Shown one piece after another: positions 16,999 through 28,250 of a stretch of DNA of 64,000 bases. This DNA comes from Candidatus Latescibacterota bacterium (GTDB lineage Bacteria > Latescibacterota > UBA2968 > GCA-2709665), in NCBI GenBank assembly GCA_965203805.1, contig OZ241917.1, positions 4,032,001 to 4,096,000 of the forward strand. Reading direction: 5' to 3'. Each line of letters opens with the position of its first letter. The stretch's first letter is position 1. Made by a program: the position numbers and the translations under genes. The notes under the pieces are model-generated. The model was not told the DNA's origin. It worked only from the letters and a program-made list of their open reading frames with translations, and did not search any database.

Positions 16999-19900
16999 TT
17001 ATGTATAAGGATTAAATCCAAAGTCTGCAAGCATCCTGTCTATGTAGTCGTATTGCTCGTTTCGCTCCTGAAATAAGATATGCGCCCCGGCAAACTGCTC
17101 CCTATCCCAATTCCCGTTTTCGTATCGCATGGAAAGGTCGTCGTAAGGTGTTGCGGAAACGATAAACGAATCGAGCGTGACGCCTTTGCGATCACTTCTG
17201 TCAGCAATCTCTCTGGCCAATTGTGGCAGCTTTTCGTGAAGCTGCGCCTTTTCGTCATTGCAATATGCAAGTGCATGTAGCATTCCGTGCGGCTCGACGA
17301 AGACGATGTGTTGTTTCCTTCCTTGTTTGACCCAAAGGATGAAGTCCGGATAGAAGCCGCTAGATTCAAAAAATCCTACGCCCGCGCCACGGCTCTGGTT
17401 TCGCAATAGAAACACCTCCCGGCCGGACAGCCTACCGTCACTCTCCTTCTTCCAGTAGTCCTTCAAGTCCTTTACAAACTGTTTTTCACTCTTGTTTAAG
17501 GCGGGGGGAGTGGTCTTGACGTCATCTTCCTCGCTGTATTCTATCAGTAGAGGTTGGTAGAGGTGCCGATCGAAGTGAAGGCGAGGTAACTCGTCCGTTT
17601 CCTTCTCGTATAGTCTCTCGCAGTCGTCGATCAGCCGTTCGATGTTCTCCATTAAGGAGACTTTGGAGCGTTTGACGCTGACAACGTACCGGCCCCTACC
17701 CTCGGATTCACGACCAAAGCTCAGATTCGGATCGCGCTCGTCGAGGGTCTGGTAAACCATCTGATTCGACTCCCATCGGTCCCGGTGGACGCGGTAGAAG
17801 GAGTCGACGTATTTCCGCAGAATTGAAGTTACTGCACTTTGAAGCCGTTCTACATCCTCAAATGACTGAGGTCGTACTACCGATTCATCGGCGATCAGGC
17901 TATAGCGTTCACCGTCCGCAACTATCCGACGCGGTGCGTCGGGCAATACGCACAGATTGCTCAGGCCTTTCTGTTCCGTATACTCAATCAGGTCGAGATA
18001 GGCCCGCTGCCAATCCACCAGATCAAGGCTGTCCTGTGGGAGCGCCCGCTCGTGACCAACATGCGCGTCGGACGATAATACTCCGTCTTCGCTGCTTTCC
18101 AGCGACTGAACCTTTAGCGACAGGTCGACCCGTACCTTCCTTACTTCGGAATCCGGCTCCAGGAGATGACTTTGAGTCTTGACGAATTCGCCATCGTCTT
18201 GTATCCGCGGCACGACGAGTCCGGCCGCTAGCAGTTTCTTATCGGGGCGAACAAAAAGCGGTAGCTCATCGTAACCTTCGGTGTCGACGCCCTCCCTCTC
18301 AAGGTACTTCCTGAAGTCGGCCATATAGTTGGCGCGAACCGCGAAGATGTTGAGCGTTTCGAGAAGCCGGATGTGACTCGGGTGCGTACCGTCCAATGCC
18401 GCGCTCCGCTTCAGGCTTGCGTCCATGCCTCGCAAGCGTACCCCGCGACCGAATAATTGGATGATTTCCGAACCTTCCCTCTGCCCGATTTTCAAAAGTC
18501 CCATATTCGAAACGCGCCAGGAATTCCATCCTTCCATGAATTTCTTCGCGCCAATCAGTACCTCGATAGTGGTATGCAGATCATTGATGCTATCGAAAAG
18601 CGATCCGGACAGAGCGTCATCTTCCAGCGTTATTCCAGTGTCTGCATCCTCCACCAGATTTTTGAATGAGCTAACGTCGCCTATGTAGATTAGCCCGAAA
18701 TAGTCCTCGGCGCCACTCGCTTTCAGGCCCAATTCGCCTTCGGCGCCCCGAATTGTGCATAAGTGTAGACCACCCCCCACTTGGGTATGGAATACCATTT
18801 TAAGTATGTCCTGGTAAATCACTTCCGACGAGCGTTCAGTTGCCCGCAGAAACGGGAATTTCCCCGAGAACACATCTTGACCGTACTGTGTTACGAGCCC
18901 ACTCTCGCCGTTAATGATTCGATGAATGGCATTGGTCGTCCACCGGCGCTCACTCAAGACCAAATGCAGGAACCGTGCCACTGTCAGGACGTCACTGGAT
19001 TTCTCCTTGTTCTTTTTGTACACAGCATTTACTGTGCTGCCTACAAAGACTGACAGCGGTCTCTCAAGGTCGTAAGGGCGCAATTCGTCGGCCGACTGAG
19101 CAAAAACACATTGCTGCTCGTAGAAGGACAGCAAGTTGCCGAGCAATAATGTCTCCGTCTCCTCGGAGGTCGTCTCCTCGACGAGATTGAGTATTCGAAA
19201 ATCCTTGCCGAAACCGTCTCCGTGAAAATACCTGTACGAGTAATCGAAGACGATGGCCTTACCATATTCCCTGGTAAGTTCGTCGTTGCCAACTGCTTTC
19301 AGTGCCTGACCAAACGTCGCGCTGTATTCCAATGTAAAGCCACTTTCGCCAAGCTCGTCACGGTAGCGACGCCACACGTCGCCACCCGAACCCTTGTGGC
19401 CCTCATCGACGAAAATCAGATTGTTGCCTTCAAACGCTTCGACGGGTACACTGACACCTCCGCCACGCTTCTGTTCAACCAATTTGGTGATTTCGATGAT
19501 TCTAACTTCGTCGTGGTGAGAGAATGGATCGCTCTCCGTGAGGGTAAAGCGGCTGCATGCAATGCCCGATGCACGCATCTCGCTTTGATGTTGCTCGCTC
19601 AATCCCTCGTTAGGCGTAATCAGCAGGATATTGTCCAGCGGCTGGTCGTTGTAGTGCCTGAACTGGTGATAGTTAAGGTGCATGATCAGGGTTTTGCCGC
19701 TCCCGGTTGCCATCCAGAAAGCCAGTTTCTTCAGGTCGGTTTCACAGAATTTCTCACCTTTATTTCTACCAGCGGTGAATGAGTTCAGGGAACTAAGCAT
19801 CTCACCACGTTGGTTGAAGTATTGATAGAGGAAGACTTCCACGTAGAGAGCCGCGAGGTACTGAAAGTACCGTAGCGTAATCGGTTCGGACCGTCGGGCA

Positions 19901-20148
19901 TTCATGTCATTCAAGTGCTTTCGGATATTCTGGTCGTACTGCAACAGTGTATCTGGAGCAATCTTCACCGCGTCCCCACGGCTGACCAATCGGTGAAAAA
20001 CATGACTGCGTCCATCGGGATCGAACCCCTCGGCCGTCTGCTTCATATCGCAAAGCAGGTCGCGGTTTTGCTCGTAGCCGAATTGATGGTTTAACCATGC
20101 CAATAGTACCAGGCGCTGATCCAGGTCGGTATTCTGTGCCGGTGGCAT
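16999..20148 (-). CDS. res: Type III restriction endonuclease subunit Res
   Basis: 1049 aa; MATGSGKT (Walker A), VDEGH, SAT, FMEGWN, QLFGRGVR, and C-terminal FYPDFILW..VFVEPHG PD-(D/E)xK-type nuclease motif. Confidence 0.92.
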   Translation of the reverse strand: MPPAQNTDLDQRLVLLAWLNHQFGYEQNRDLLCDMKQTAEGFDPDGRSHVFHRLVSRGDAVKIAPDTLLQYDQNIRKHLNDMNARRSEPITLRYFQYLAALYVEVFLYQYFNQRGEMLSSLNSFTAGRNKGEKFCETDLKKLAFWMATGSGKTLIMHLNYHQFRHYNDQPLDNILLITPNEGLSEQHQSEMRASGIACSRFTLTESDPFSHHDEVRIIEITKLVEQKRGGGVSVPVEAFEGNNLIFVDEGHKGSGGDVWRRYRDELGESGFTLEYSATFGQALKAVGNDELTREYGKAIVFDYSYRYFHGDGFGKDFRILNLVEETTSEETETLLLGNLLSFYEQQCVFAQSADELRPYDLERPLSVFVGSTVNAVYKKNKEKSSDVLTVARFLHLVLSERRWTTNAIHRIINGESGLVTQYGQDVFSGKFPFLRATERSSEVIYQDILKMVFHTQVGGGLHLCTIRGAEGELGLKASGAEDYFGLIYIGDVSSFKNLVEDADTGITLEDDALSGSLFDSINDLHTTIEVLIGAKKFMEGWNSWRVSNMGLLKIGQREGSEIIQLFGRGVRLRGMDASLKRSAALDGTHPSHIRLLETLNIFAVRANYMADFRKYLEREGVDTEGYDELPLFVRPDKKLLAAGLVVPRIQDDGEFVKTQSHLLEPDSEVRKVRVDLSLKVQSLESSEDGVLSSDAHVGHERALPQDSLDLVDWQRAYLDLIEYTEQKGLSNLCVLPDAPRRIVADGERYSLIADESVVRPQSFEDVERLQSAVTSILRKYVDSFYRVHRDRWESNQMVYQTLDERDPNLSFGRESEGRGRYVVSVKRSKVSLMENIERLIDDCERLYEKETDELPRLHFDRHLYQPLLIEYSEEDDVKTTPPALNKSEKQFVKDLKDYWKKESDGRLSGREVFLLRNQSRGAGVGFFESSGFYPDFILWVKQGRKQHIVFVEPHGMLHALAYCNDEKAQLHEKLPQLAREIADRSDRKGVTLDSFIVSATPYDDLSMRYENGNWDREQFAGAHILFQERNEQYDYIDRMLADFGFNPYT

Positions 20149-20150
20149 CT

Positions 20151-20219
20151 CTACGGATCATCCTTCACGTGGGTTTCCAGTTGTTCAATCAGCAGCGGCA
20201 GGTCATCCCGCCTGCTCAT
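20151..20219 (-). pseudogene. HEPN (HepT/DUF86) toxin remnant, in-frame internal deletion (22 aa)
   Basis: MSRRD-DLPLLIEQLETHVKDDP*; overlaps the MNT stop and ends 2 nt before the res start. Confidence 0.75.
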
Positions 20220-20517
20220 AGACGACCTCCACCGAGGTGAGTATATCCTTCCGGAGCAGCCTATTCGGGTTGCTTTCGACGCCCCGGAAGGTGTGTAGAT
20301 CCACTCTTCTCCCGTATATTTCCGACAACTCGTCCTGCATGGTGATGAACTGCAGTCCCGGTGTCTTGCCCGGCTCGAACTCCACGAGTACATCCACGTC
20401 GCTCTCAGACGTGAAGTCGTCGCGCAGCACCGAGCCGAACAGCGCCAGACGCTTGATACCGTTGCGACGGCAGAAGGCGGCGATCTTTTTCTTCGGAATG
20501 TCAATTCTCGTGGTCAT
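20203..20517 (-). CDS. MntA-like minimal nucleotidyltransferase antitoxin
   Basis: 104 aa; LALFGSVLRDDF..ESDVDVLVEF...GRRVDL. Confidence 0.92.
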   Translation of the reverse strand: MTTRIDIPKKKIAAFCRRNGIKRLALFGSVLRDDFTSESDVDVLVEFEPGKTPGLQFITMQDELSEIYGRRVDLHTFRGVESNPNRLLRKDILTSVEVVYEQAG

Positions 20518-20525
20518 GTCTATCG

Positions 20526-21695
20526 TTAACTTCCCATTAAAGGCACCCGAAACGGCCGGCGTTTCAGCATTGTTTCCTTATTGGCGCAGTAGCTGTTCCC
20601 TTCCTTTGTAATCCAATTCTTCTCCGTGAGCCATTGTAGATCCTTCATGATGATCCATGGTTTTTCCCCATAGGACTCACCAAAGCGGTCGCCTGTCATC
20701 ATTAATGACAATGGATCAACTGCTTGATCGCCGGCCGATAGATCCAGAAGCAGGTCGCGGCGCCTTTTTCCAGCGACAGTATCCTGTCTCGGAAAATGTT
20801 GATATATATGGTGCTGCCAAACGATATCCAGATGCTGCTTCCAAATCATCTCCAGTTGACCGTGAAGCCCGTCGAGGAATCCCTGCACGGCATAGGCGAG
20901 AAAGGGTACGACCTTTCCACCGGATTGGCTGGAACGCGCGAGTTGGCGCGCATATTCGGCACGCGTGGCGCTATAATGGCTGCTCAACAAGTGACAGGCG
21001 GGTACCGGTATGCCCGACCGCAACAGGATTGCGAATTCCAGCAACCTCGCCGTGCGGCCGTTGCCGTCTCCAAACGGATGGATCCATGCCACATAAAGAT
21101 GGGCTATTACCGCCTTGATGATTGCAAACGTAATCTCCTCGCCTTCGGGTACCTTGAATTCATCCCTTAGCCAGTGGCACATTCTCTCCAGCAGGAATTC
21201 GCAATCCTCCGCGGGCGCGCCTCGATATCGCCTGCCCACGCCCACTGAGTGGGTTCGAATTGTGCCCGGAATGGAACCTTCCTGTTGGTCGAGCTTGCCG
21301 AGAACGGCTCTATTCATCTCTTTGATCCATTCGATATCCAGGGGCTCGACCGACCCCTCGCGCATTCCCTTGATTGTCGTGTTGATGGCCTCAATAATGT
21401 TGTCAATCTCCTGCGCCAGATACTCGCGCGAGGGGGGCAGTTCCAGTTTTCCCTCTATATGCCGCAACACATCCTCTTCGGACAGGGTATTTCCTTCAAT
21501 GGCGGTCGTGGCATGGACGCCCTTGGCCAGATAAACCTTATAGAGGTCCTCCGCCGATTCATGAACGAGCGGCACCCTGGAGACGTGCTCGATCTTGGAA
21601 GCGCATTCCCCCAGTTTCATCCAGAGCGAATAGGGCACGTCACGCAGGTCGACTTGAAACGTGATCCAGGGATGGGTCTTCTGGTATTTTCTCAT
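20526..21695 (-). CDS. Fic-domain protein (class II-like)
   Basis: HPFGDGNGRTAR catalytic motif and TTAIEGN inhibitory motif; start reassigned to ATG 21695. Confidence 0.9.
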   Translation of the reverse strand: MRKYQKTHPWITFQVDLRDVPYSLWMKLGECASKIEHVSRVPLVHESAEDLYKVYLAKGVHATTAIEGNTLSEEDVLRHIEGKLELPPSREYLAQEIDNIIEAINTTIKGMREGSVEPLDIEWIKEMNRAVLGKLDQQEGSIPGTIRTHSVGVGRRYRGAPAEDCEFLLERMCHWLRDEFKVPEGEEITFAIIKAVIAHLYVAWIHPFGDGNGRTARLLEFAILLRSGIPVPACHLLSSHYSATRAEYARQLARSSQSGGKVVPFLAYAVQGFLDGLHGQLEMIWKQHLDIVWQHHIYQHFPRQDTVAGKRRRDLLLDLSAGDQAVDPLSLMMTGDRFGESYGEKPWIIMKDLQWLTEKNWITKEGNSYCANKETMLKRRPFRVPLMGS

Positions 21696-21741
21696 GGTTT
21701 GCCTACGTCCGGAATTCGCGCCATATCGTCCATTCGCCTCG

Positions 21742-23256
21742 TTACTCCCCGTCTTTCCCTTCGCCAAATTCCTCCGCGATTTTTGTCATCATGCGCCGTA
21801 GCATTTCGTTGAAGATCTTTTTAAGTACGTCCAGATCCTGTCCGATGAATTGTTCCTCAAAATCGAGGTCCCGACACTTAAACTTCCAAACGCAACGACT
21901 AGAGTCTGCTTCGTTCTCAACTTTGAACTCGAAATCAACCCCTTTATTCGCTTGATATCCGGTCAGCCAGAGACCCAGACTGGTGGACACAAGGAGAGCG
22001 CTTTCGGGCCAGTCGTCAACTGGTTCGTCGAGCCGAAAAGTTCGAACCTGATTGTCCTCGCTCCTCACCGAAGAATTTTTTCTGGTTACATGGAGACTCT
22101 CAAACATATCGGAAAACCCCTCGCACTTCTCTTTGCAATAAGAAGAAAACGGATACACCACGCTGTCCGCATACTCCCTGACCCGAAAAAGCTCACTGGT
22201 ACCGGTTTGCATCGATCGTTTGAAGAGCTCAATTTCCTTATCTATGTCCTCCACATCGTCAATACGCTCGCCACGGGCGGCGCGCAGATGAAGACTCAGG
22301 GTATTTTCGCAATTTTCGGCAATACACTCAATAAACTCGGACAGGTCCTCGGATTTGTCGGCCCGTTCCAGCGATTCGATGTATCGATTTCTTTCCTGGA
22401 TTGGGATTATTGCCACTGTGTAGCCATGCTTGATCAGGATCATGTTCATCAGCAGCCGCGCCATTCGACCGTTTCCATCGTCGAATGGATGAATTCTGAC
22501 AAAGCGGTAGTGGAACGTAGCGGCAATGACGACTGGATGCTCGCCCTCGCTTTCGGCCCTTCTGTACCAGTCGATGAGGTCGCTCATTGCCGGCTTAACC
22601 TGGTCGGGGGGCAGATAGTAGTATATCTCGCCGGTTGAGGTACGAACGTTGTTGGGCTGGGCCTTATAGTCGCCAATGGTGATCAGTCGTTTCGTGGGCC
22701 GACCATCGGGTGTCAGTGCGTCGACTTCATACGGATCTTTCAATAATACCTTATGAAGATTGCGGATGAAGACCTCGTTAAGTTCCTCTTTACACTTTAC
22801 GGCATCTTCTATGGCCCTTACCGCTTGGTCGTGCCCCTCGACGTCCAAATGATCGCGCAAGGACTTTCCGTGGGCGGTCAGCCCATGCAGGATCAGGCTT
22901 CTCGTTTCTCCAAGGGTCAGGCTATTGCCTTCTATAGCATTGGAGTGATAGTTCGACTCGATTCTGAGCTTCTGTTCTATCCGCTCTACGACGTAGGACG
23001 ATAGAGGCCGCAGTGCGTCCAAATCCGCTTTCAATGCATTTATCTCTTCAATGACGTTGCCCAAATTGCCTACCAGGTTCACAGTCTGATGTCTTGGTTC
23101 CTTATCGGGCTTCTGATCGGTGTCTTCCGCGGGCATGTCTGCAGGCATGGTTTCCTCAGGCGGTGCATCCTGCACAGAATCGTTCATTGAGCGTTCAACA
23201 CCCAGCCATCGCTTCAAGGATTCCCAACGTTTTGCAGATGTTCCCTGGCGTGCCAT
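21742..23256 (-). CDS. Fic-domain protein with an uncharacterised C-terminal domain
   Basis: HPFDDGNGRMAR and SNAIEGN motifs; about 170 aa C-terminal extension. Confidence 0.9.
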   Translation of the reverse strand: MARQGTSAKRWESLKRWLGVERSMNDSVQDAPPEETMPADMPAEDTDQKPDKEPRHQTVNLVGNLGNVIEEINALKADLDALRPLSSYVVERIEQKLRIESNYHSNAIEGNSLTLGETRSLILHGLTAHGKSLRDHLDVEGHDQAVRAIEDAVKCKEELNEVFIRNLHKVLLKDPYEVDALTPDGRPTKRLITIGDYKAQPNNVRTSTGEIYYYLPPDQVKPAMSDLIDWYRRAESEGEHPVVIAATFHYRFVRIHPFDDGNGRMARLLMNMILIKHGYTVAIIPIQERNRYIESLERADKSEDLSEFIECIAENCENTLSLHLRAARGERIDDVEDIDKEIELFKRSMQTGTSELFRVREYADSVVYPFSSYCKEKCEGFSDMFESLHVTRKNSSVRSEDNQVRTFRLDEPVDDWPESALLVSTSLGLWLTGYQANKGVDFEFKVENEADSSRCVWKFKCRDLDFEEQFIGQDLDVLKKIFNEMLRRMMTKIAEEFGEGKDGE

Positions 23257-23317
23257 CTATTTCACCGTTTCAGCTAACACGAGCCACTTGGATTCGGCGT
23301 TCTCACAGTAGTCTTGA

Positions 23318-24070
23318 CTACTTTCTTTCCACGGTTGGCACATCTGATGAGACCGTATGTCCCAAAATAAGGCTTCGAAAGGACGCCATATGCTCCGTCG
23401 CATCACTAACTATACTTCGGTGTTCCGATAACTCTTCTTCGGGCAACAATCGCGCCAATTTTCCCTTCTTGCTTTCCTCCAAAACGGCAATACTGATCGG
23501 CTCGTTTATTCCCCCAGGATTAACTTCACATGCGTGTCGCAATGCCCAAACCGCGGTAAATATACCACCTCGCAAGGTCGGCGGTTCTTCATTCCAAAAT
23601 ATAGATCGGAAAAACGCCAGAAGAGGGTCAAGAATGGGTTGTCCGCTTCCAGCCGCTACCCACCAGTTACCTTCGAGCATCTTAATTTCAGGTTGAAATC
23701 CAGCAGCAGACGGCAGTTCACATAAGGACATTCCGTCCTTGGCCGAAAATGCTACCAGAGCCGAAAAATCCAGCTGCGTAATTCCGGTTTGTTGAAAGTC
23801 GTTTATTCCTGATTGGGAAAGTAATTTTCCGACTTCAATGGCACCTTTTCCCTTAAATTCCTGGCCTCTCCACAATCTTCGAACAACGTCATAGAATCTC
23901 TGGGCATGGCCAACATAACCGGATCCAGCAACGATCACATGATCATCTACGATTTCTATCTTTTTTGTTGGCTGCTCGATTGTGCGGTGCTGTTCGTGGA
24001 CAAACGTCGCAGACCCGTCGGCCCCGATCACCACCCCATCCTTGCATCGAATCCCGATCAATGCAGTCAT
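23318..24070 (-). CDS. Proteasome beta-subunit/HslV-like Ntn threonine hydrolase
   Basis: After Met removal: Thr1, Asp17 (GVVIGAD), KKI (Lys33 equivalent), VAGSG and AAGSG (Ser129-equivalent GSG). Confidence 0.85.
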   Translation of the reverse strand: MTALIGIRCKDGVVIGADGSATFVHEQHRTIEQPTKKIEIVDDHVIVAGSGYVGHAQRFYDVVRRLWRGQEFKGKGAIEVGKLLSQSGINDFQQTGITQLDFSALVAFSAKDGMSLCELPSAAGFQPEIKMLEGNWWVAAGSGQPILDPLLAFFRSIFWNEEPPTLRGGIFTAVWALRHACEVNPGGINEPISIAVLEESKKGKLARLLPEEELSEHRSIVSDATEHMASFRSLILGHTVSSDVPTVERK

Positions 24071-24072
24071 AC

Positions 24073-24528
24073 TTATTCCTGAAAAATGCTGTTTTCACGC
24101 ATATCCGGATACGACTTATAAATCGCGCCTACAAGCTCGGCAAAAGACAAACTCCGTACCCACTCTGACAGTCGTTTCAGATATTTCTGTACGTATTTGG
24201 GCAATTGAGAGAGCTTCTTCTCCCCCTGTATCTGTCCTGCGTAAGTCAGGCAGTACGAGCGACCCGCTATGGTAGCACCCGAGATGTGTTCCGTTATCTG
24301 GACGAGTCCCATTTTCTGAAGGGCTTCAAGTTCCGCATATACGGCCTTATCAAATGGACCGTAGTCATACGGCTCAAACGCAAACTGCTTGCCGTGCATT
24401 TCATCCGCGACATTCTCATCAATCAGGAAAAATAATTTCTGGATTTGTACCGGCTCAAACGTGGCATCCGGCACAGCGGAAAGCCCTGCAAGGACCATCT
24501 TCTGTCGGTGCGAAAGTACGAGTGGCAT
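24073..24528 (-). CDS. SocA/Panacea (DUF4065)-like winged-helix protein
   Basis: PVQIQKLFFL, FEPYDYGPF..VYAELE and YCLT..G pattern; ends 2 nt before the protease start. Confidence 0.7.
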   Translation of the reverse strand: MPLVLSHRQKMVLAGLSAVPDATFEPVQIQKLFFLIDENVADEMHGKQFAFEPYDYGPFDKAVYAELEALQKMGLVQITEHISGATIAGRSYCLTYAGQIQGEKKLSQLPKYVQKYLKRLSEWVRSLSFAELVGAIYKSYPDMRENSIFQE

Positions 24529-24603
24529 AAGAATCCCCTTTACATTGACAAACCCAGTAGGATTGTCCCGGCCTGAAAGCGGATCGTTTTACGTCTATTA
24601 CTG

Positions 24604-24632
24604 AACATACGTTCACTGATGTATATTGTCAA
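24604..24632 (-). promoter_or_regulatory. Sigma70-like promoter with overlapping inverted repeats, upstream of the Panacea-like gene
   Basis: TTGACA(24632-27)-17 bp-TATGTT(24609-04); palindromes GTATATT-N6-AATATAC (24621-40) and TGAAC-N4-GTTCA (24602-15). Confidence 0.65.
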
Positions 24633-24732
24633 GAATATACGACCAAATTATGGTTCAATTCAGTTCGTATTTTGATGGCCGGTCTTCTGCGGGTAGATTC
24701 TCGTAAAGCAGCTAACGGCCTGGATTTTTGTT

Positions 24733-27700
24733 TCACGCCTCCACTCCTGCGAACATCCGTCGCTTGAACAGGGGATCCAGCGCTTTTGCATTTTGGATAA
24801 AGGAATCACCATTTGCATAAACTGTGTCTGCTCCCTCAGCCAATTTCTGATCAGCCACAAAGTCTTTGTCCCGCTCAAAGTCCGATTTCTCCCACCCATC
24901 GGTTTCGCGCCAAACGACCACGACAGTTCGCCCCTCATGTGTCTGGCCGCTATAGACCAGGTACCGCCGATCGTTGTCGTAATGGACGTGCCGCGTCTGC
25001 ACGTGTAGTCCGATCAGGTAGTTGAAGGTCTCCGGGATATCAGCCAACATTTGTCCCGTCTGTCCATCTGAGCGGATGTTCAGTCGGTAGGAGAACGGTC
25101 TCGCGAGCTTCTCTACGTTCAGCAAGGTGTCGCTATGTCGTGTCTCCCATCGCAGCATGTATTTTAGCAGATAATCATCGAATTGTAGAGCCTGTTGTTG
25201 TGAAACTTCATCGAAGTCTATGTTGTTCAACGCATCCTCGTAGCTTTCAAGACGCGAATATTTCACAATACGAGGTCCGGGCTCGACATCTTGCGGTGTA
25301 ATCCGTAATTTGGGCTTTCCGCCCTTCCATTCTGGTGCAAACGTGACCTTCTTTATCCGTGGAAGCAGAACGGTGTCGAAATATTCACCCATCTCAACAA
25401 GGATGAATTTGCGTTGGCCGCCGTCCTCGCGATTGAGATTAATGACCGCGTGGCCGGTAGTACCGGAGCCGGCAAAATAGTCGATTACGACATCAAATAA
25501 AGTATCCGAAGCTGCACCGATTAACTCCTCATAGAAATTCACCGAATGGCAATATGGGAAATTCGTGAGCCCCATTGCGTCTAGGTCTGTTTTTCCTCGC
25601 TTGGCATCCTGCATCACGGAAGAAATCTGTCTCGTAGATTCAGTTGTCAAGTATCGTTTCTGTCGTGGTTGGGTGCTGTGATCAGGTCCAAAGATAATCT
25701 CGCCGCGCGCATTCATACTCTTTAAGGTCTCGGGTGTACGTGAGAATCCATTAGGCGGCACCGGACAGGGTTTGTGCGTTACAGGATGAACCAAGGGTTC
25801 ATGAAACTTTGGATCAGATCTAGGTTCTGGTGCCCTCAGACTGACACTTTGGTAGATCCTTCCATCCTGATCCAGATACCTGTATGCTTTTTCTCCGCCG
25901 GTGAGCTGTGGATTCCTGTTTACCCAGTTTGCGTATGCCTTTCTTGCTGTTTCCGTAACTCCGCCGCTAGCCTTTATAATGTCTTCTGCTTCATTCAACA
26001 TCATTTGAATCGAATTATTGCGAAGATTAATGGGTTTATCAGTCTTTGCTCTCCAAATGACATATTCATGTTGAATTGCCACGCCTCCGCCAGCTGTCAT
26101 GGGGTTTCTTTTATCCCAAATCAAAGTACCTGCATTGCCAATGTCGAGACTATCCATCAACATGTGGAGTCTTTCGTACTCATTCTCGTCGATATGGCAA
26201 AGGAACAAGCCTTCCTCGCTCAACAGTTCAAGAGCTGTACCAATGCGATTGCTCATCATCGTAAGCCAACTCGAATGCTGGTAGTTATTCTTGTAGAGGA
26301 AGCCGCTTGTCTGAGTGTTATAAGGAGGATCAATGTGTGCGCACTTTATCCGACCATTGTACTTTCTCGACAGAAGATTGAGTGCCTGCCAATTGTCACT
26401 GTGTATCAATACACCGTCAGTTATACTGTCCAGGTCATCAAACGTGCCTAACAGCCGATCTACGAATTCTAGATCGAAGTGTTTCGAATCTAGGACCAGG
26501 GTCGGGTGCTCTGTCAAGTACTGGATACGATTGTCAGTTTTTTCCATTCCAGGGGTGAACAGGTCAGGTTGATCTTCGTCAATAATGTACGAATCTTTCC
26601 ATTCAGTCCACTGAGCGTCGCATTTTGCGATATCAGCGACAAAGTGATCGGCAATGTGCCTTAAGGATATGCAGTAATTGGTTTCGATAACAAACTTCCG
26701 CTTTTCCCAAAGTATTTTTTGGAAGTTCTCAATCTGGTCAAGGAAGTTGATGACCTGACTACCGACAGATCTGATAACCTGCATCATCTGAAACCAACTC
26801 TCGGCTCGTCTTGCGCCTGCCACTTCCATTTGGTCTAGATTAAGCACTTCGTTTTTGAGATAGAAGTCGAGTTCGCGAATGAGAAATGCATTGAGGTTCT
26901 TGTGAATGAAGAAATCCGAGGTGTTCCGCCTCGTGTACTGGAGCAGGTGATGTTCGAAAGAAGAAATGGACTCGCCATCGTTCTTTTGTCGCCTTTCGGC
27001 CAAAAGCGCAGCCACTGCGTCAGGTACATGTTTGAGCAGAACTGGAATCTGAGACACAGCTTCGTTGATGATGGCATCCTGCTGGTTCTTACCACGGTAC
27101 GAGATTTCTTCCCGTTCGGTCAAAGGTCGGAACTCGAATGGAATCTCGAGGCGCTTTGCATTTTCATCCCAAGCAGGCGCCTCCAAAGATGGTACAAAAA
27201 ACCGCCTATCACCCTTGGTATTGTCCCGCTCGACGTCAGCAGCTTTTAGTTTGAAATGCACGCTGATGCCTCGCGAAGCAAAGGCATAGTCTTGAAAGTG
27301 TTCGCCAGTCTTCACATAGTATTGGTCACTGTTCGCCCAATGCAGATGTACTTCTTCGCCGTTGTAAGGAATGGCATACCGATGGCGCTTCGAATATCGT
27401 CGTTTGGATATGAAGTCGCCATCCTGGTAGTACCGGCTAAAGAACGCGTACAGATGGTTGAATATCGCCGCTTCGAGTCCTTTTTGTCCCAAGCCGCCTG
27501 CAGATTTCGCCTTCAACTCCAGGTAGCACTTTCCGAGCGGCGTATTGTGGAACATTTCCGCAAGGTTTCCGTCAGCATCGATGGCGGCGTGGCCAAAAGA
27601 TGCTAGAATCTGCTTTCGGTTTTCCTGGAGCTTTTTCTCGGTCTGCGCTTCCTCGGCGGCGGCGCCCTTCTTTAGTTCTTCATAGACGGTATTCGGCAGG

Positions 27701-27834
27701 CTTTCGATTATAAATCGCTCGATAACGTCCCGCTTGTGATTCATTATGCGATAGATTCCGAAGTCCAGGTCCGCGCAGTCGAACTGGAACAACTCGCGAA
27801 GGAGGTCCTGAAATTTGGCGAGTGGCGTACTCAT
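24733..27834 (-). CDS. mod: Type III RM DNA methyltransferase subunit Mod
   Basis: 1033 aa; HIDPPYNT (motif IV) precedes DYFAGSGTTG (motif I), i.e. beta-class order; DLDFGIYRI N-terminus. Confidence 0.92.
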   Translation of the reverse strand: MSTPLAKFQDLLRELFQFDCADLDFGIYRIMNHKRDVIERFIIESLPNTVYEELKKGAAAEEAQTEKKLQENRKQILASFGHAAIDADGNLAEMFHNTPLGKCYLELKAKSAGGLGQKGLEAAIFNHLYAFFSRYYQDGDFISKRRYSKRHRYAIPYNGEEVHLHWANSDQYYVKTGEHFQDYAFASRGISVHFKLKAADVERDNTKGDRRFFVPSLEAPAWDENAKRLEIPFEFRPLTEREEISYRGKNQQDAIINEAVSQIPVLLKHVPDAVAALLAERRQKNDGESISSFEHHLLQYTRRNTSDFFIHKNLNAFLIRELDFYLKNEVLNLDQMEVAGARRAESWFQMMQVIRSVGSQVINFLDQIENFQKILWEKRKFVIETNYCISLRHIADHFVADIAKCDAQWTEWKDSYIIDEDQPDLFTPGMEKTDNRIQYLTEHPTLVLDSKHFDLEFVDRLLGTFDDLDSITDGVLIHSDNWQALNLLSRKYNGRIKCAHIDPPYNTQTSGFLYKNNYQHSSWLTMMSNRIGTALELLSEEGLFLCHIDENEYERLHMLMDSLDIGNAGTLIWDKRNPMTAGGGVAIQHEYVIWRAKTDKPINLRNNSIQMMLNEAEDIIKASGGVTETARKAYANWVNRNPQLTGGEKAYRYLDQDGRIYQSVSLRAPEPRSDPKFHEPLVHPVTHKPCPVPPNGFSRTPETLKSMNARGEIIFGPDHSTQPRQKRYLTTESTRQISSVMQDAKRGKTDLDAMGLTNFPYCHSVNFYEELIGAASDTLFDVVIDYFAGSGTTGHAVINLNREDGGQRKFILVEMGEYFDTVLLPRIKKVTFAPEWKGGKPKLRITPQDVEPGPRIVKYSRLESYEDALNNIDFDEVSQQQALQFDDYLLKYMLRWETRHSDTLLNVEKLARPFSYRLNIRSDGQTGQMLADIPETFNYLIGLHVQTRHVHYDNDRRYLVYSGQTHEGRTVVVVWRETDGWEKSDFERDKDFVADQKLAEGADTVYANGDSFIQNAKALDPLFKRRMFAGVEA

Positions 27835-27847
27835 GGCTTAATTTTCC

Positions 27848-27949
27848 TCACGAACCATACAGCCTATCAATGCGGGCGAGTTTCAGGTCGCTTCTGGCGT
27901 AGCGTAGCCAGTCTTCAGCATTCCCCGGAACCAGAGATTCAGAGCCCAT
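27848..27949 (-). pseudogene. HEPN-domain toxin remnant (N-terminal helix only)
   Basis: MGSESLVPGNAEDWLRYARSDLKLAR..*; W...A..DL..A is a typical HEPN N-terminus; overlaps the MNT stop. Confidence 0.7.
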
Positions 27950-28250
27950 AGACTTCAATGCCTTCTTTGAGGGCGTTCTTGTAGATCAGGCCGTCATTGT
28001 CCTTGTGCTCTGCCCGGTCCCGTTCGGTTGCGACGACAATATCGAATGGTACCGCCAGTCCCTTTATTTCGCGGTAAAGTTTCTGCGCGGTTTGCCGCCG
28101 ATGAGTGCCGTCGGGCATGACGACCAGAAGATCGATGTCGCTCTGCAGCCCTGACTCTTTTCTGGCTGCAGAGCCGAAGAGCACGATTCGCAAAGGATTT
28201 ACACGCTTTACGACCTCGCCAACGAGCCTGTCTGCCTTCGAATCAGCCAT
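27939..28250 (-). CDS. Minimal nucleotidyltransferase (MNT)
   Basis: 103 aa; IVLFGSAAR...SDIDLLVV...FDIVV. Confidence 0.9.
   Translation of the reverse strand: MADSKADRLVGEVVKRVNPLRIVLFGSAARKESGLQSDIDLLVVMPDGTHRRQTAQKLYREIKGLAVPFDIVVATERDRAEHKDNDGLIYKNALKEGIEVYGL

What the first reader, a model, noticed from the sequence alone, without database searches (positions are those of the whole stretch)
23318..24528. SocA/Panacea-like protein paired with a stand-alone proteasome-beta-like threonine protease
Seen: a two-gene unit (2-nt gap) with its own promoter inside the RM locus. Gene 2 begins M-T and has the proteasome beta/HslV catalytic constellation (Thr1, Asp17, Lys in KKI, GSG) with no propeptide. 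No alpha subunit, HslU, Pup or AAA ATPase is nearby, and the context is not the transglutaminase/ATP-grasp operon typical of Anbu. Known: SocA is a proteolytic adaptor antitoxin, and Panacea domains neutralise many unrelated toxins. Inference: an undescribed TA or anti-phage module in which a proteasome-fold protease is either the toxin or a dedicated degrader fed by the adaptor. This is the strongest novelty candidate in the window.
Basis: partly seen in the sequence, partly recalled or inferred. Interest (0 to 1): 0.85.

Follow-up and report, generated by a model that had tools for sequence, protein, structure and literature searches.

The report
Mobile antitoxin-like protein plus proteasome-like protease
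A small, self-contained two-gene cassette that hops between genomes pairs an antitoxin-like protein with a stand-alone proteasome-type protease, most likely a new kind of toxin-antitoxin or anti-phage module, though nobody has tested it.

Summary
Two minus-strand genes 2 nt apart (partner 24073-24528, 151 aa; protease 23318-24070, 250 aa) lie between the mod and res genes of a type III restriction-modification system.

**Protease.** It has a genuine proteasome fold (PF00227; Z 20-23 to 20S subunits). It starts Met-Thr, and the Thr1/Asp17/Lys33/Ser-Gly equivalents are invariant. It falls far below the HslV and 20S equivalog cut-offs.

**Partner.** It is not a Pfam Panacea member, but it is a remote relative (hhalign 90.7%, with the GP motifs aligned). 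Its best structural match is the toxin-sequestering C-terminal domain of DarG.

**Conservation.** The pair is adjacent in 76 of 77 informative loci with an intact protease, across many bacterial phyla and methanogens, and no third gene is conserved.

**Mobility.** The pair behaves as a discrete cassette of about 1.45 kb. It is absent from the same RM slot in sister genomes and duplicated alone within one genome.

**Partner swapping.** The same partner family also pairs with a DUF2335 membrane protein and occurs in phages without the protease.

**Best reading (about 0.5).** This is a PanAT/DarTG-like type II toxin-antitoxin or abortive-infection module with a proteasome-fold toxin. Function is inferred, not shown.

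My literature searches found no description of the pairing.

The parts
24604..24632 (-). Sigma-70-like promoter candidate (TTGACA-17-TATGTT) in the 204-bp region upstream of the partner gene
   Evidence: a consensus match only. The upstream region travels with the cassette: it is absent from the empty sites in sister genomes. About 154 bp of upstream region is included in the duplicated cassette of G028.
24073..24528 (-). Partner gene, 151 aa: winged-helix core plus C-terminal helices, a remote Panacea / DarG-C-terminal-domain-like protein and the putative antitoxin
   Evidence: invariant Y56 G57 F59, P58 at least 90%; pLDDT 94.0; 7yk3 DarG chain: Foldseek E 5e-4; Z 10.6, rmsd 4.3, 139 aligned; hhalign 90.7% to Panacea.
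23318..24070 (-). Stand-alone proteasome-fold N-terminal-threonine hydrolase, 250 aa, no propeptide: the putative toxin or effector
   Evidence: pLDDT 86.8; 20S Z 20-23; Anbu 19.6; HslV 17.9; BPH 17.6; connectase about 11; the Thr codon directly follows a start codon in 75 of 80 loci.
23311..24732 (-). The inserted cassette (about 1.42 kb): upstream region plus both genes. It is present in G000 and G077 and absent at this site in G069 and G051.
   Evidence: The boundaries are my reading of the alignments and are approximate to about +/-10 nt.
23262..23310 (.). Degenerate relic of the mod 3' end left between the cassette and the Fic gene start
   Evidence: Alignment A6 and A4. By my count about 32 of 46 positions are identical to the uninterrupted mod/fic junction of G051.
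24733..27834 (-). Context: type III RM methyltransferase (Mod)
21742..23256 (-). Context: Fic-domain protein (504 aa)
   Evidence: PF02661; PDC-S04 / SoFic models
20526..21767 (-). Context: second Fic-domain protein (413 aa, SoFic-like)
   Evidence: SoFic 8.3e-52
20203..20517 (-). Context: MNT-type nucleotidyltransferase (104 aa)
   Evidence: PF01909; PDC-S09
16999..20148 (-). Context: type III RM restriction subunit (Res)

Best explanation
This is an autonomous, horizontally mobile two-gene toxin-antitoxin-type module, probably used for abortive-infection defence.

The upstream gene encodes a Panacea/DarG-CTD-like antitoxin. It would bind the downstream protein directly and keep it inactive, and its winged helix may also repress the cassette's own promoter.

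The downstream gene encodes a propeptide-less proteasome-fold threonine protease. It would become catalytically competent as soon as its initiator Met is removed. When the antitoxin is lost, titrated or inactivated (for example during phage infection or loss of the cassette), the protease would cleave host and/or phage proteins and stop growth.

Shown: the gene anatomy, both folds, conservation of the catalytic residues, conservation of the pairing, cassette mobility, and partner swapping.

Inferred: physical binding, toxicity, the trigger, the substrates, autoregulation, and any role in defence.
For: (1) Pair conservation. 75 of 80 protease-anchored loci have the partner adjacent, and L023 keeps a partner fragment at its contig edge. 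Among the 77 informative loci with an intact or merely frameshifted protease, 76 have the partner. All 10 protease copies found in 168 genomes of the phylum have it adjacent. No third gene is conserved among the +/-3 ORFs: the largest cluster holds 6 ORFs from 5 near-kin loci.

(2) Tight coupling. In 66 of the 67 co-directional loci the partner stop lies -13 to +17 nt from the protease start (mode 3). The pair stays together even when the partner is inverted, in 7 convergent loci and 1 divergent locus. Pairwise distances of the two proteins correlate (r 0.66; Mantel 0 of 999 permutations; 71 pairs).

(3) The partner resembles direct toxin-binding antitoxin domains. Its best structural match is the DarG chain of the DarTG complex 7yk3 (Foldseek E 5e-4; Z 10.6, rmsd 4.3, 139 of 151 residues aligned; the next matches are generic winged helices at Z<=8.6). 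It hits the PADLOC DarG model at positions 163-268 of 329 (E 7e-5). The DarG C-terminal domain sequesters DarT (PMC7003065, passages). hhalign against 18 true Panacea proteins gives 90.7%, with the family's YGPF aligned to the Panacea GPV. That motif is reported as the Panacea signature and as needed for neutralisation (PMC8832971, passages).

(4) Partner swapping, as in PanA. Five strong partner homologues (E 1e-43 to 2e-48) in another genus have no protease; 3 of the 5 are followed by a DUF2335 membrane protein. Of 18 viral-contig partner loci, 11 carry the protease, 1 is cut by a contig end and 6 carry other neighbours.

(5) Mobility. Of the 5 of 15 genus genomes that share this RM system, 2 have the pair, 2 have an empty site with mod abutting fic, and 1 has a different cargo (an MNT nucleotidyltransferase plus a 73-aa ORF). 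In G028 a 1,448-bp unit consisting of just this cassette is present twice at 98% identity with unrelated flanks.

(6) Sporadic spread. The pair is in 6 of 168 phylum genomes and 2 of 15 genus genomes. It occurs across many bacterial phyla and Methanomicrobiales (titles).

(7) Neighbourhoods. In 13 of the 41 loci scanned (L002-L042 only, of 79), an integrase, transposase, RM, Abi, TA or prophage gene lies within +/-2 ORFs.

(8) Decay pattern. The two loci with N-terminally truncated proteases (L044, L073) are also the ones that have lost the partner, as expected if the antitoxin becomes dispensable once the toxin is dead.
Against: There is no experimental datum of any kind.

One intact protease (L058) has no partner within 6 kb.

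Eight loci have the two genes on opposite strands, which is unusual for type II TA operons.

Proteasome-family proteases normally need ring assembly and often an unfoldase, so intrinsic toxicity is not self-evident.

The partner fails the Pfam and NCBIfam thresholds for Panacea/SocA, and its core is a common winged helix that could simply be a transcription factor.

Many loci (for example L003, L005-L007, L017) sit among housekeeping genes.

The protease has no hit in PADLOC-DB v2.

The Asp166/Ser169 equivalents of 20S beta subunits are not conserved. This rests on my reading of A1 against motif positions recalled from memory.
Confidence: 0.5

Rival explanations
1. Adaptor- or regulator-fed protease, the reader's second option and SocA-like logic. 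The protease is not toxic in itself. The partner acts as its specificity or assembly factor. It either recruits a particular target, such as a phage protein, to the protease, or senses a signal and switches the protease on. The pair would then be a defence or regulatory proteolysis system rather than a TA pair.
For: The obligate pairing, co-inheritance and weakly supported interaction fit this reading equally well. SocA, a Panacea protein, is a proteolytic adaptor (PMC8832971, passage). The pair survives gene inversion, as expected for a protein complex rather than an operon-level addiction module. No AAA unfoldase is conserved nearby, so some other substrate-delivery factor would be needed.
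Against: The same partner family also pairs with a non-protease (a DUF2335 membrane protein) and occurs alone in phages. That fits a generic neutraliser better than a protease-specific adaptor. The closest structural relative, the DarG C-terminal domain, is a sequestering inhibitor. According to the paper, most tested PanAs neutralise by direct binding and do not need ClpXP or Lon.
Confidence: 0.25
2. Repressor-protease switch. I recall ImmR/ImmA and LexA-like logic as the analogy; no call tested it. The winged-helix protein is a DNA-binding repressor of the cassette or of a mobile element, and the protease cleaves it in response to a signal.
For: The partner's core is a winged helix, with weak PadR/MarR-type matches. 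A promoter-like site and a 9-nt inverted repeat lie upstream. Some loci lie in prophage-like or integrase contexts.
Against: There is no conserved third gene or regulated target. The cassette moves as just these two genes. The partner's strongest whole-domain match is a protein-binding antitoxin domain, not a DNA-bound regulator. DNA binding is untested.
Confidence: 0.12
3. Non-conflict enzyme pair. It would be a specialised housekeeping peptidase, or a connectase-like transpeptidase/ligase, with its dedicated substrate or chaperone.
For: Connectase shows that proteasome homologues can be sequence-specific ligases (PMC7980362, abstract seen in the listing). Many loci sit among housekeeping genes.
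Against: The family is sporadic (6 of 168 phylum genomes). It shows a presence/absence polymorphism inside an RM operon, cassette duplication, and viral-contig copies. Structural similarity to connectase is much lower (Z about 11) than to 20S subunits (Z 20-23).
Confidence: 0.08

Closest known systems
PanAT systems (Panacea/DUF4065 antitoxins with many unrelated toxins; Kurata et al. 2022, PMC8832971: abstract and passages read)
   Same: Both are two-gene modules. The antitoxin-like protein shares remote profile homology with Panacea (hhalign 90.7%) and has an aligned G-P-hydrophobic motif. The same antitoxin family pairs with unrelated neighbours. Distribution is mobile and sporadic.
   Different: The partner fails PF13274 (no hit at E<=10) and the NCBIfam SocA cut-off. 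Its model is a winged helix plus helical extension. The main text of the paper has no occurrence of 'proteasome' or 'peptidase', and its occurrences of 'protease' that I read concern ClpXP/Lon and rare accessory third genes. I could not see its supplementary datasets.
DarTG, specifically the C-terminal DarT-binding domain of DarG (PDB 7yk3; PMC7003065 passages read)
   Same: This is the best structural match of the whole partner (Z 10.6, 139 residues aligned). The PADLOC DarG model also hits over its C-terminal part. That domain neutralises its toxin by sequestration.
   Different: There is no macrodomain and no DarT. The neighbour here is a protease, not an ADP-ribosyltransferase. Sequence identity is only 14-16%.
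SocAB (type VI TA; SocA is a ClpXP adaptor)
   Same: Both link a Panacea-type protein to proteolysis.
   Different: In SocAB the protease is the housekeeping ClpXP and the toxin is SocB. Here the protease is the encoded partner itself, and there is no third gene.
Orphan proteasome homologues catalogued by Fuchs, Alva & Lupas 2021 (PMC8665760: Results part 1 and passages read), for example WPH
   Same: Both are stand-alone and propeptide-less, occur in bacteria and archaea, are similar to both archaeal alpha and beta subunits, and have C-terminal helices as in Anbu. These features fit that paper's description of WPH.
   Different: Identity with WPH or any other named cluster could not be tested, because I could fetch neither the accessions nor the Mendeley alignments. 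The paper states that no genomic context or co-occurrence suggestive of function was found. Here a near-obligate partner is shown.
HslV, 20S beta, Anbu, BPH, connectase
   Same: All share the Ntn proteasome fold and a Thr1 nucleophile.
   Different: Scores are far below the HslV and archaeal beta equivalog cut-offs. No conserved HslU/AAA, alpha subunit or ATP-grasp/transglutaminase neighbours were found. The profile search of the PDB returned only 20S alpha and beta chains (35 of 35), with no HslV, Anbu or BPH at E<=0.01.

Membership tests
Proteasome-like Ntn hydrolases (PF00227 / MEROPS T1) | Score above the Pfam gathering threshold | tested here: met
   44.6 bits against 22.4, E 1.6e-11
Proteasome-like Ntn hydrolases (PF00227 / MEROPS T1) | Alpha-beta-beta-alpha Ntn fold | tested here: met
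   Model pLDDT 86.8. Foldseek to 20S subunits: E 3.7e-13, TM 0.67. Z 20-23, rmsd 2.3-3.1, 179-203 residues aligned.
Proteasome-like Ntn hydrolases (PF00227 / MEROPS T1) | N-terminal Thr nucleophile plus the Asp/Glu17, Lys33 and Ser129-Gly130 equivalents | tested here: met
   T2, D18, K37 and G143 are invariant and S142 is at least 90% conserved. T2 aligns to residue 1 of the mature beta subunit. The Thr codon follows a start codon in 75 of 80 loci. Met removal is inferred from general knowledge and was not tested.
HslV | NCBIfam equivalog cut-off | tested here: not met
   12.8 bits against 137, and 11.5 against 157.75
HslV | Adjacent HslU AAA+ partner | tested here: not met
   No conserved third gene in 80 loci. 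None in window 16999-28250.
20S proteasome beta subunit | Equivalog cut-off, alpha-subunit partner, propeptide | tested here: not met
   38.5 bits against 224. No alpha subunit adjacent. No propeptide. The genome's real PrcB/PrcA/Pup ligase lie elsewhere.
Anbu | Operon with ATP-grasp, alpha-E and transglutaminase genes | tested here: not met
   1 of 41 scanned loci has a transglutaminase-core ORF within +/-2 ORFs (L025). None in the window. The structural Z of 19.6 to a designed Anbu is not discriminating.
WPH or another named cluster of Fuchs et al. 2021 | Clustering with that family's sequences | not testable with these tools
   I could fetch neither the representative accessions nor the Mendeley alignments. 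The descriptive features fit WPH.
Panacea / SocA (PF13274, NF047745) | Score above the curated thresholds | tested here: not met
   No PF13274 hit at E<=10. SocA 16.6 bits against 190.
Panacea / SocA (PF13274, NF047745) | Homology at profile level, with the conserved G-P-V-type motif | tested here: met
   hhalign A2 against A3: 90.7%, E 1.3e-6, 128 columns, YGPF aligned to GPV. Motif importance comes from PMC8832971. No control was run against unrelated winged-helix families.
Panacea / SocA (PF13274, NF047745) | One antitoxin family paired with unrelated toxins | tested here: inconclusive
   Protease, DUF2335 and other small ORFs are seen as neighbours, but none of them is shown to be a toxin.
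DarG | N-terminal macrodomain and a DarT neighbour | tested here: not met
   The 151-aa protein matches only the C-terminal part of DarG. The neighbour is PF00227.
Type II toxin-antitoxin system | Compact two-gene unit that is autonomous and mobile | tested here: met
Type II toxin-antitoxin system | The toxin arrests growth, and the antitoxin binds and neutralises it | not testable with these tools
   This needs expression and rescue assays and binding assays.

The most novel reading that the evidence does not exclude
A propeptide-less proteasome-fold threonine protease is the toxin or effector of a mobile toxin-antitoxin / abortive-infection cassette, held in check by a Panacea/DarG-CTD-type antitoxin. 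This would be the first proteasome-family toxin. It would also give the first function and obligate partner for one of the orphan prokaryotic proteasome homologue families. Stand-alone partner homologues lying between phage terminase and portal genes would then be candidate counter-defence antitoxin mimics.
Probability: 0.4. Interest if true: 0.82.

Novelty: new variant of a known kind. Interest (0 to 1): 0.7.

Why it matters
Prokaryotic proteasome homologues beyond HslV and the 20S particle are numerous but functionally orphan. The survey that catalogued 22 new families explicitly found no informative gene context (PMC8665760).

Here one such family gains a near-obligate partner whose relatives are toxin-neutralising domains, together with clear evidence that the pair moves as a unit through defence-type loci.

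If the protease is the toxin, it adds a new biochemical class, proteasome-fold proteolysis, to toxin-antitoxin and anti-phage effectors. It would also extend the reach of the Panacea/DarG-CTD neutraliser superfamily well below current Pfam detection. Finally, it would offer a simple two-gene system for asking how a proteasome-like protease is kept silent without a propeptide, an alpha ring or an ATPase gate.

Tried and rejected
- **Complex prediction.** The verdict was weak support only: ipSAE 0.42, 0.42 and 0.48 against a best control of 0.00. The runs agreed in at least 52% of contacts, and partner pLDDT was at least 82. The tool says such passes (at or under 0.60) were reached by only 7 of 80 solved complexes and by both mismatched pairs that passed. 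No interface was given, so I do not count it as evidence.
- **Expression.** No RNA holder was listed, so I did not lay reads.
- **Plasmids.** There was no match.
- **Viral contigs scanned with the protease.** Only 2 loci were found. The partner-anchored scan then found 11 with the protease, so the first scan was limited by its patterns.
- **Fused forms.** None scored among proteins of 439-2000 aa (weak evidence by the tool's own note). The 395-aa hit P0072 is not a partner fusion.
- **Profile search of the PDB with the partner.** Nothing scored better than E 0.19.
- **Cluster look-up for the WPH accession.** It was not among the accessions shown, so family naming stays open.
- **Earlier scan notes.** There were none for this sequence or place. 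Word search returned notes on other proteasome-like families with small partners. I used them as a theme only and did not test them.
- **Terminal inverted repeats at the G028 cassette ends.** I saw none by eye, so the mobilisation mechanism is unknown.
- **Neighbour scan coverage.** The Pfam scan covered only loci L002-L042 (148 of 290 selected ORFs). The other 38 loci were not scanned.
- **Supplements.** They could list this toxin cluster or name this family.
Full report
**What is there.**
On the minus strand, a 151-aa ORF (24073..24528) is followed after 2 nt by a 250-aa ORF (23318..24070) that begins Met-Thr. Both have purine-rich stretches a few bases upstream of their ATGs, which I read directly. 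Upstream lies a 204-bp non-coding stretch with a TTGACA-17-TATGTT site on the correct strand (24632..24604). That site is a consensus match only.

The pair sits inside a type III restriction-modification operon. Mod (24733..27834) scores MTase_III 2.5e-248 and Res (16999..20148) scores REase_III 3.3e-144. Two Fic-domain genes and an MNT-type nucleotidyltransferase also lie between Mod and Res, all on the same strand.

**The protease.**
- It passes PF00227 (44.6 bits against a cut-off of 22.4).
- NCBIfam places it nearest archaeal beta (8.9e-10) and alpha (1.4e-7) subunits, but far below their cut-offs. HslV models score 12.8 and 11.5 bits against cut-offs of 137 and 157.75.
- The family is large. 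205 proteins scored E<=0.001 in the word-based search. 968 50%-identity representatives did so in the exhaustive search, 196 of them at E<=1e-30.
- In a 20-sequence alignment M1, T2, D18, K37, G51 and G143 are invariant and S142 is nearly so.
- A profile search of the PDB returned 35 sequences at E<=0.01. All are 20S alpha or beta chains, and T2 sits on residue 1 of the mature A. fulgidus beta subunit.
- The AlphaFold model (pLDDT 86.8) has the Ntn sandwich plus two C-terminal helices.
- It matches 20S subunits at Z 20-23, a designed Anbu at 19.6, HslV at 17.9, BPH at 17.6 and connectase at about 11.
- In 75 of 80 related loci the catalytic Thr codon directly follows ATG, GTG or TTG. The five exceptions are a contig edge, two truncations and two split or partial alignments.

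So the family as a whole has no propeptide. The active N-terminus needs only removal of the initiator Met, which is general knowledge and was not tested here.

**The partner.**
- Pfam gives no Panacea hit even at E<=10, only a sub-threshold PadR match. NCBIfam SocA scores 16.6 bits against a cut-off of 190.
- PADLOC shows that the domain recurs in defence proteins: PDC-M19A (1.7e-13), the C-terminus of a type I specificity-subunit model (4e-9), DarG positions 163-268 of 329 (7e-5) and RT_UG17.
- The model (pLDDT 94.0) is a winged helix with a long central helix and a C-terminal helical extension.
- Its best match over the whole domain is the DarG chain of the M. tuberculosis DarTG complex (Foldseek E 5e-4; Z 10.6, rmsd 4.3, 139 aligned). 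Generic winged-helix regulators follow at Z<=8.6.
- The DarG C-terminal domain neutralises DarT by sequestration (PMC7003065, passages).
- I built an alignment of 18 bona fide PF13274 proteins from genomes of the same phylum. hhalign against the partner alignment gave 90.7% probability, E 1.3e-6, over 128 columns. The family's invariant Y-G-P-F aligned with the Panacea G-P-V.
- The Panacea paper calls that motif the domain's signature and reports that a double substitution in it abolishes neutralisation (PMC8832971, passages).
- An ESM-Atlas look-alike cluster carries PF13274 on 21% of its members. I treat that as a lead only.

I conclude that the partner is a remote relative of the Panacea/DarG-CTD neutraliser domains and not a member by curated thresholds.

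**Is the pairing real?**
A scan of 185,579 species genomes anchored on the protease found 153 relatives, and the best 80 were kept.
- 75 of the 80 have a partner homologue adjacent.
- L023 retains the last 38 residues of the partner at its contig edge.
- L041 is uninformative, because the protease starts at the contig end.
- L044 and L073 carry N-terminally truncated proteases and no partner.
- Only L058 has an intact protease without a partner.

Arrangement: the partner is upstream on the same strand in 67 loci, with a gap of -13 to +17 nt in 66 of them. The genes are convergent with touching or overlapping 3' ends in 7 loci, and divergent in 1. No third gene is conserved among the +/-3 ORFs; the largest cluster holds 6 ORFs from 5 closely related Chloroflexota loci. 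Pairwise distances of the two proteins correlate (r 0.66; 0 of 999 permutations; 71 pairs after I dropped 9 truncated, split or edge loci). Kin share both genes, so this shows co-inheritance and not contact.

The record titles span:
- Latescibacterota, Acidobacteriota and Alpha-, Beta- and Gammaproteobacteria;
- Chloroflexota, Verrucomicrobiota, Nitrospirota, Nitrospinota and Omnitrophota;
- Planctomycetota, Spirochaetota, Patescibacteria, Bacillota and Thermodesulfobacteriota;
- Methanomicrobiales archaea.

Within the window's own phylum the pair is in only 6 of 168 genomes. There are 10 copies, and all 10 have the partner adjacent. Within its genus the pair is in 2 of 15 genomes.

**Mobility.**
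A DNA search of the genus shows that 5 of 15 genomes share this RM operon.
- G000 and G077 carry the pair.
- G069 and G051 have mod abutting the first Fic gene, with roughly 210-220 bp where the window has about 1.7 kb.
- G071 has a different cargo at that spot, an MNT-type nucleotidyltransferase plus a 73-aa ORF.

Alignment of the junctions shows that the window keeps a degenerate copy of the mod 3' end (about 23262-23310) next to the Fic start. This relic is shared with G077, so the insertion spans about 23311-24732 (my reading). Independently, genome G028 holds two copies of a 1,448-bp segment at 98% identity, with unrelated flanks and sharp ends. The segment contains only the two genes plus about 117 bp downstream and about 154 bp upstream.

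The unit that moves is therefore exactly 'upstream region + partner + protease'. I saw no terminal inverted repeats, so the mechanism of movement is unknown.

**Partner swapping.**
Five strong partner homologues (E 1e-43 to 2e-48) in another genus of the phylum lack the protease. They carry a C-terminal extension of about 75 aa, and in 3 of the 5 they are followed by a DUF2335 predicted membrane protein.

In IMG/VR, 18 loci encode partner homologues:
- 11 have the protease immediately downstream.
- 1 is cut by the contig end.
- 6 have other neighbours, including copies next to a large-terminase gene (L139-141) or between large-terminase and portal genes (L147).

A weaker partner-like domain is fused to DUF488 next to a canonical Panacea gene in the window's own genome (L081). 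This is the behaviour described for Panacea antitoxins, where one neutraliser domain is combined with many unrelated effectors, including membrane toxins (PMC8832971, abstract and passages).

**Neighbourhoods.**
I scanned the +/-2 ORFs of 41 loci (L002-L042; 148 ORFs; the remaining 38 loci were not scanned). Thirteen loci have integrases, transposases, RM genes, Abi_2, BrnA, a Panacea gene, an McrB-type N-domain, an OLD-like ATPase with a UvrD helicase, or RecT with an M78 peptidase nearby. Others are flanked by plain housekeeping genes.

**Mechanism.**
The most economical reading is a type II TA-like module. The antitoxin-like protein binds and silences a protease that would otherwise be active from the moment of synthesis. 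Loss or titration of the antitoxin would release proteolysis that stops the cell or the phage.
- The two truncated proteases have lost the partner, while two frameshifted ones (L059, L069) keep it. That fits the reading but is thin evidence.
- The complex prediction gave weak support only (see Tried and rejected) and I do not rely on it.
- Against the reading stand one intact solo protease, eight opposite-strand arrangements, the usual dependence of this protease family on oligomerisation, and the complete absence of experiments.

The main rival is that the partner is a specificity or activation factor for a non-toxic protease. The two readings make opposite predictions for a simple expression/rescue assay and for peptidase assays with and without the partner.

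**What is known.**
Fuchs, Alva and Lupas (PMC8665760) catalogued 22 new proteasome-homologue families. Their 'WPH' is widespread in bacteria and archaea, similar to both alpha and beta subunits, and has predicted C-terminal coiled coils. That description fits this family, but I could not test identity. They report finding no genomic context or co-occurrence suggestive of function.

The following searches found no paper that describes this pairing:
- 'Panacea + antitoxin + proteasome'
- 'DUF4065 + proteasome'
- 'proteasome-like / toxin-antitoxin / Ntn'
- 'widespread proteasome homolog / WPH'
- 'NetFlax + proteasome'
- 'proteasome homolog / anti-phage / defense system'
- 'HslV-like / proteasome-like / antitoxin / abortive infection'

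The protease has no PADLOC-DB v2 model. Earlier notes of this scan describe other proteasome-like families with small partners on mobile DNA. None concerns this family.

**Verdict.**
This is a new variant of a known kind: a Panacea/DarG-CTD-type TA-like cassette whose effector is a proteasome-fold protease. It is of real interest because it gives an orphan proteasome family a partner, a context and a testable function.

Noticed in passing
G000:C1:3298477-3302034 (locus L083), outside the window: The genome encodes a canonical bacterial Pup-proteasome cluster: a 333-aa PF00227 protein with a long N-terminal extension (PrcB-like), an adjacent 259-aa PF00227 protein (PrcA-like) and a Pup-ligase-family gene (3e-117). 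The cassette protease is therefore an extra, unrelated proteasome homologue.
   Followed up: partly
window 20203-23256, and genus genomes G069, G051, G071 (L128-L130): The slot between mod and res of this type III RM operon is a variable cargo site. It holds Fic-Fic-MNT in all five genomes that have the operon, plus either the protease pair, nothing, or an MNT nucleotidyltransferase with a 73-aa ORF. In the empty sites the mod stop codon abuts the Fic start codon.
   Followed up: partly
L114-L118 (genus g45 of the same phylum): Strong homologues of the partner with a conserved C-terminal extension of about 75 aa occur without the protease. In 3 of the 5 loci the next gene is a 186-195-aa DUF2335 predicted membrane protein, a possible second TA-like pairing of the same antitoxin family.
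   Followed up: partly
L139-L141 and L147 (IMG/VR contigs): Partner-family genes without the protease sit in phage genomes. They lie next to the large terminase gene (L139-141) or between terminase and portal (L147, 276 aa with a C-terminal extension). They could be orphan antitoxin-type counter-defence genes.
   Followed up: no
L081:157-1152 (G000:C1, about 2,582,400): A 331-aa protein has a weak partner-like N-terminal domain fused to DUF488. It is followed by a canonical PF13274 Panacea gene (L081:1390-1956) and a 127-aa ORF. The partner's best PADLOC hit, PDC-M19A, may be this architecture. A DUF488 protein also lies directly downstream of the pair in the Methanolinea locus L028.
   Followed up: no
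L119/L120 (G061) and L121/L122 (G028): The pair is multi-copy in some genomes. G061 has three copies within a repeat of at least 6.75 kb at 99.9% identity, partly at contig ends. G028 has two copies as a bare 1,448-bp cassette, plus a 286-bp fragment of its upstream end about 2.2 kb away.
   Followed up: partly
window 27939-28250 (-): A second MNT-type nucleotidyltransferase (103 aa; PF01909, PDC-S09) lies just upstream of mod. I saw no obvious HEPN partner ORF next to either MNT gene.
   Followed up: no
L010:6620-8146 and L016:7078-8655: In two Caulobacterales-type loci the pair is followed by a 508-525-aa protein with a cytidine/deoxycytidylate deaminase domain (also MafB19-like), possibly another conflict-system gene.
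   Followed up: no
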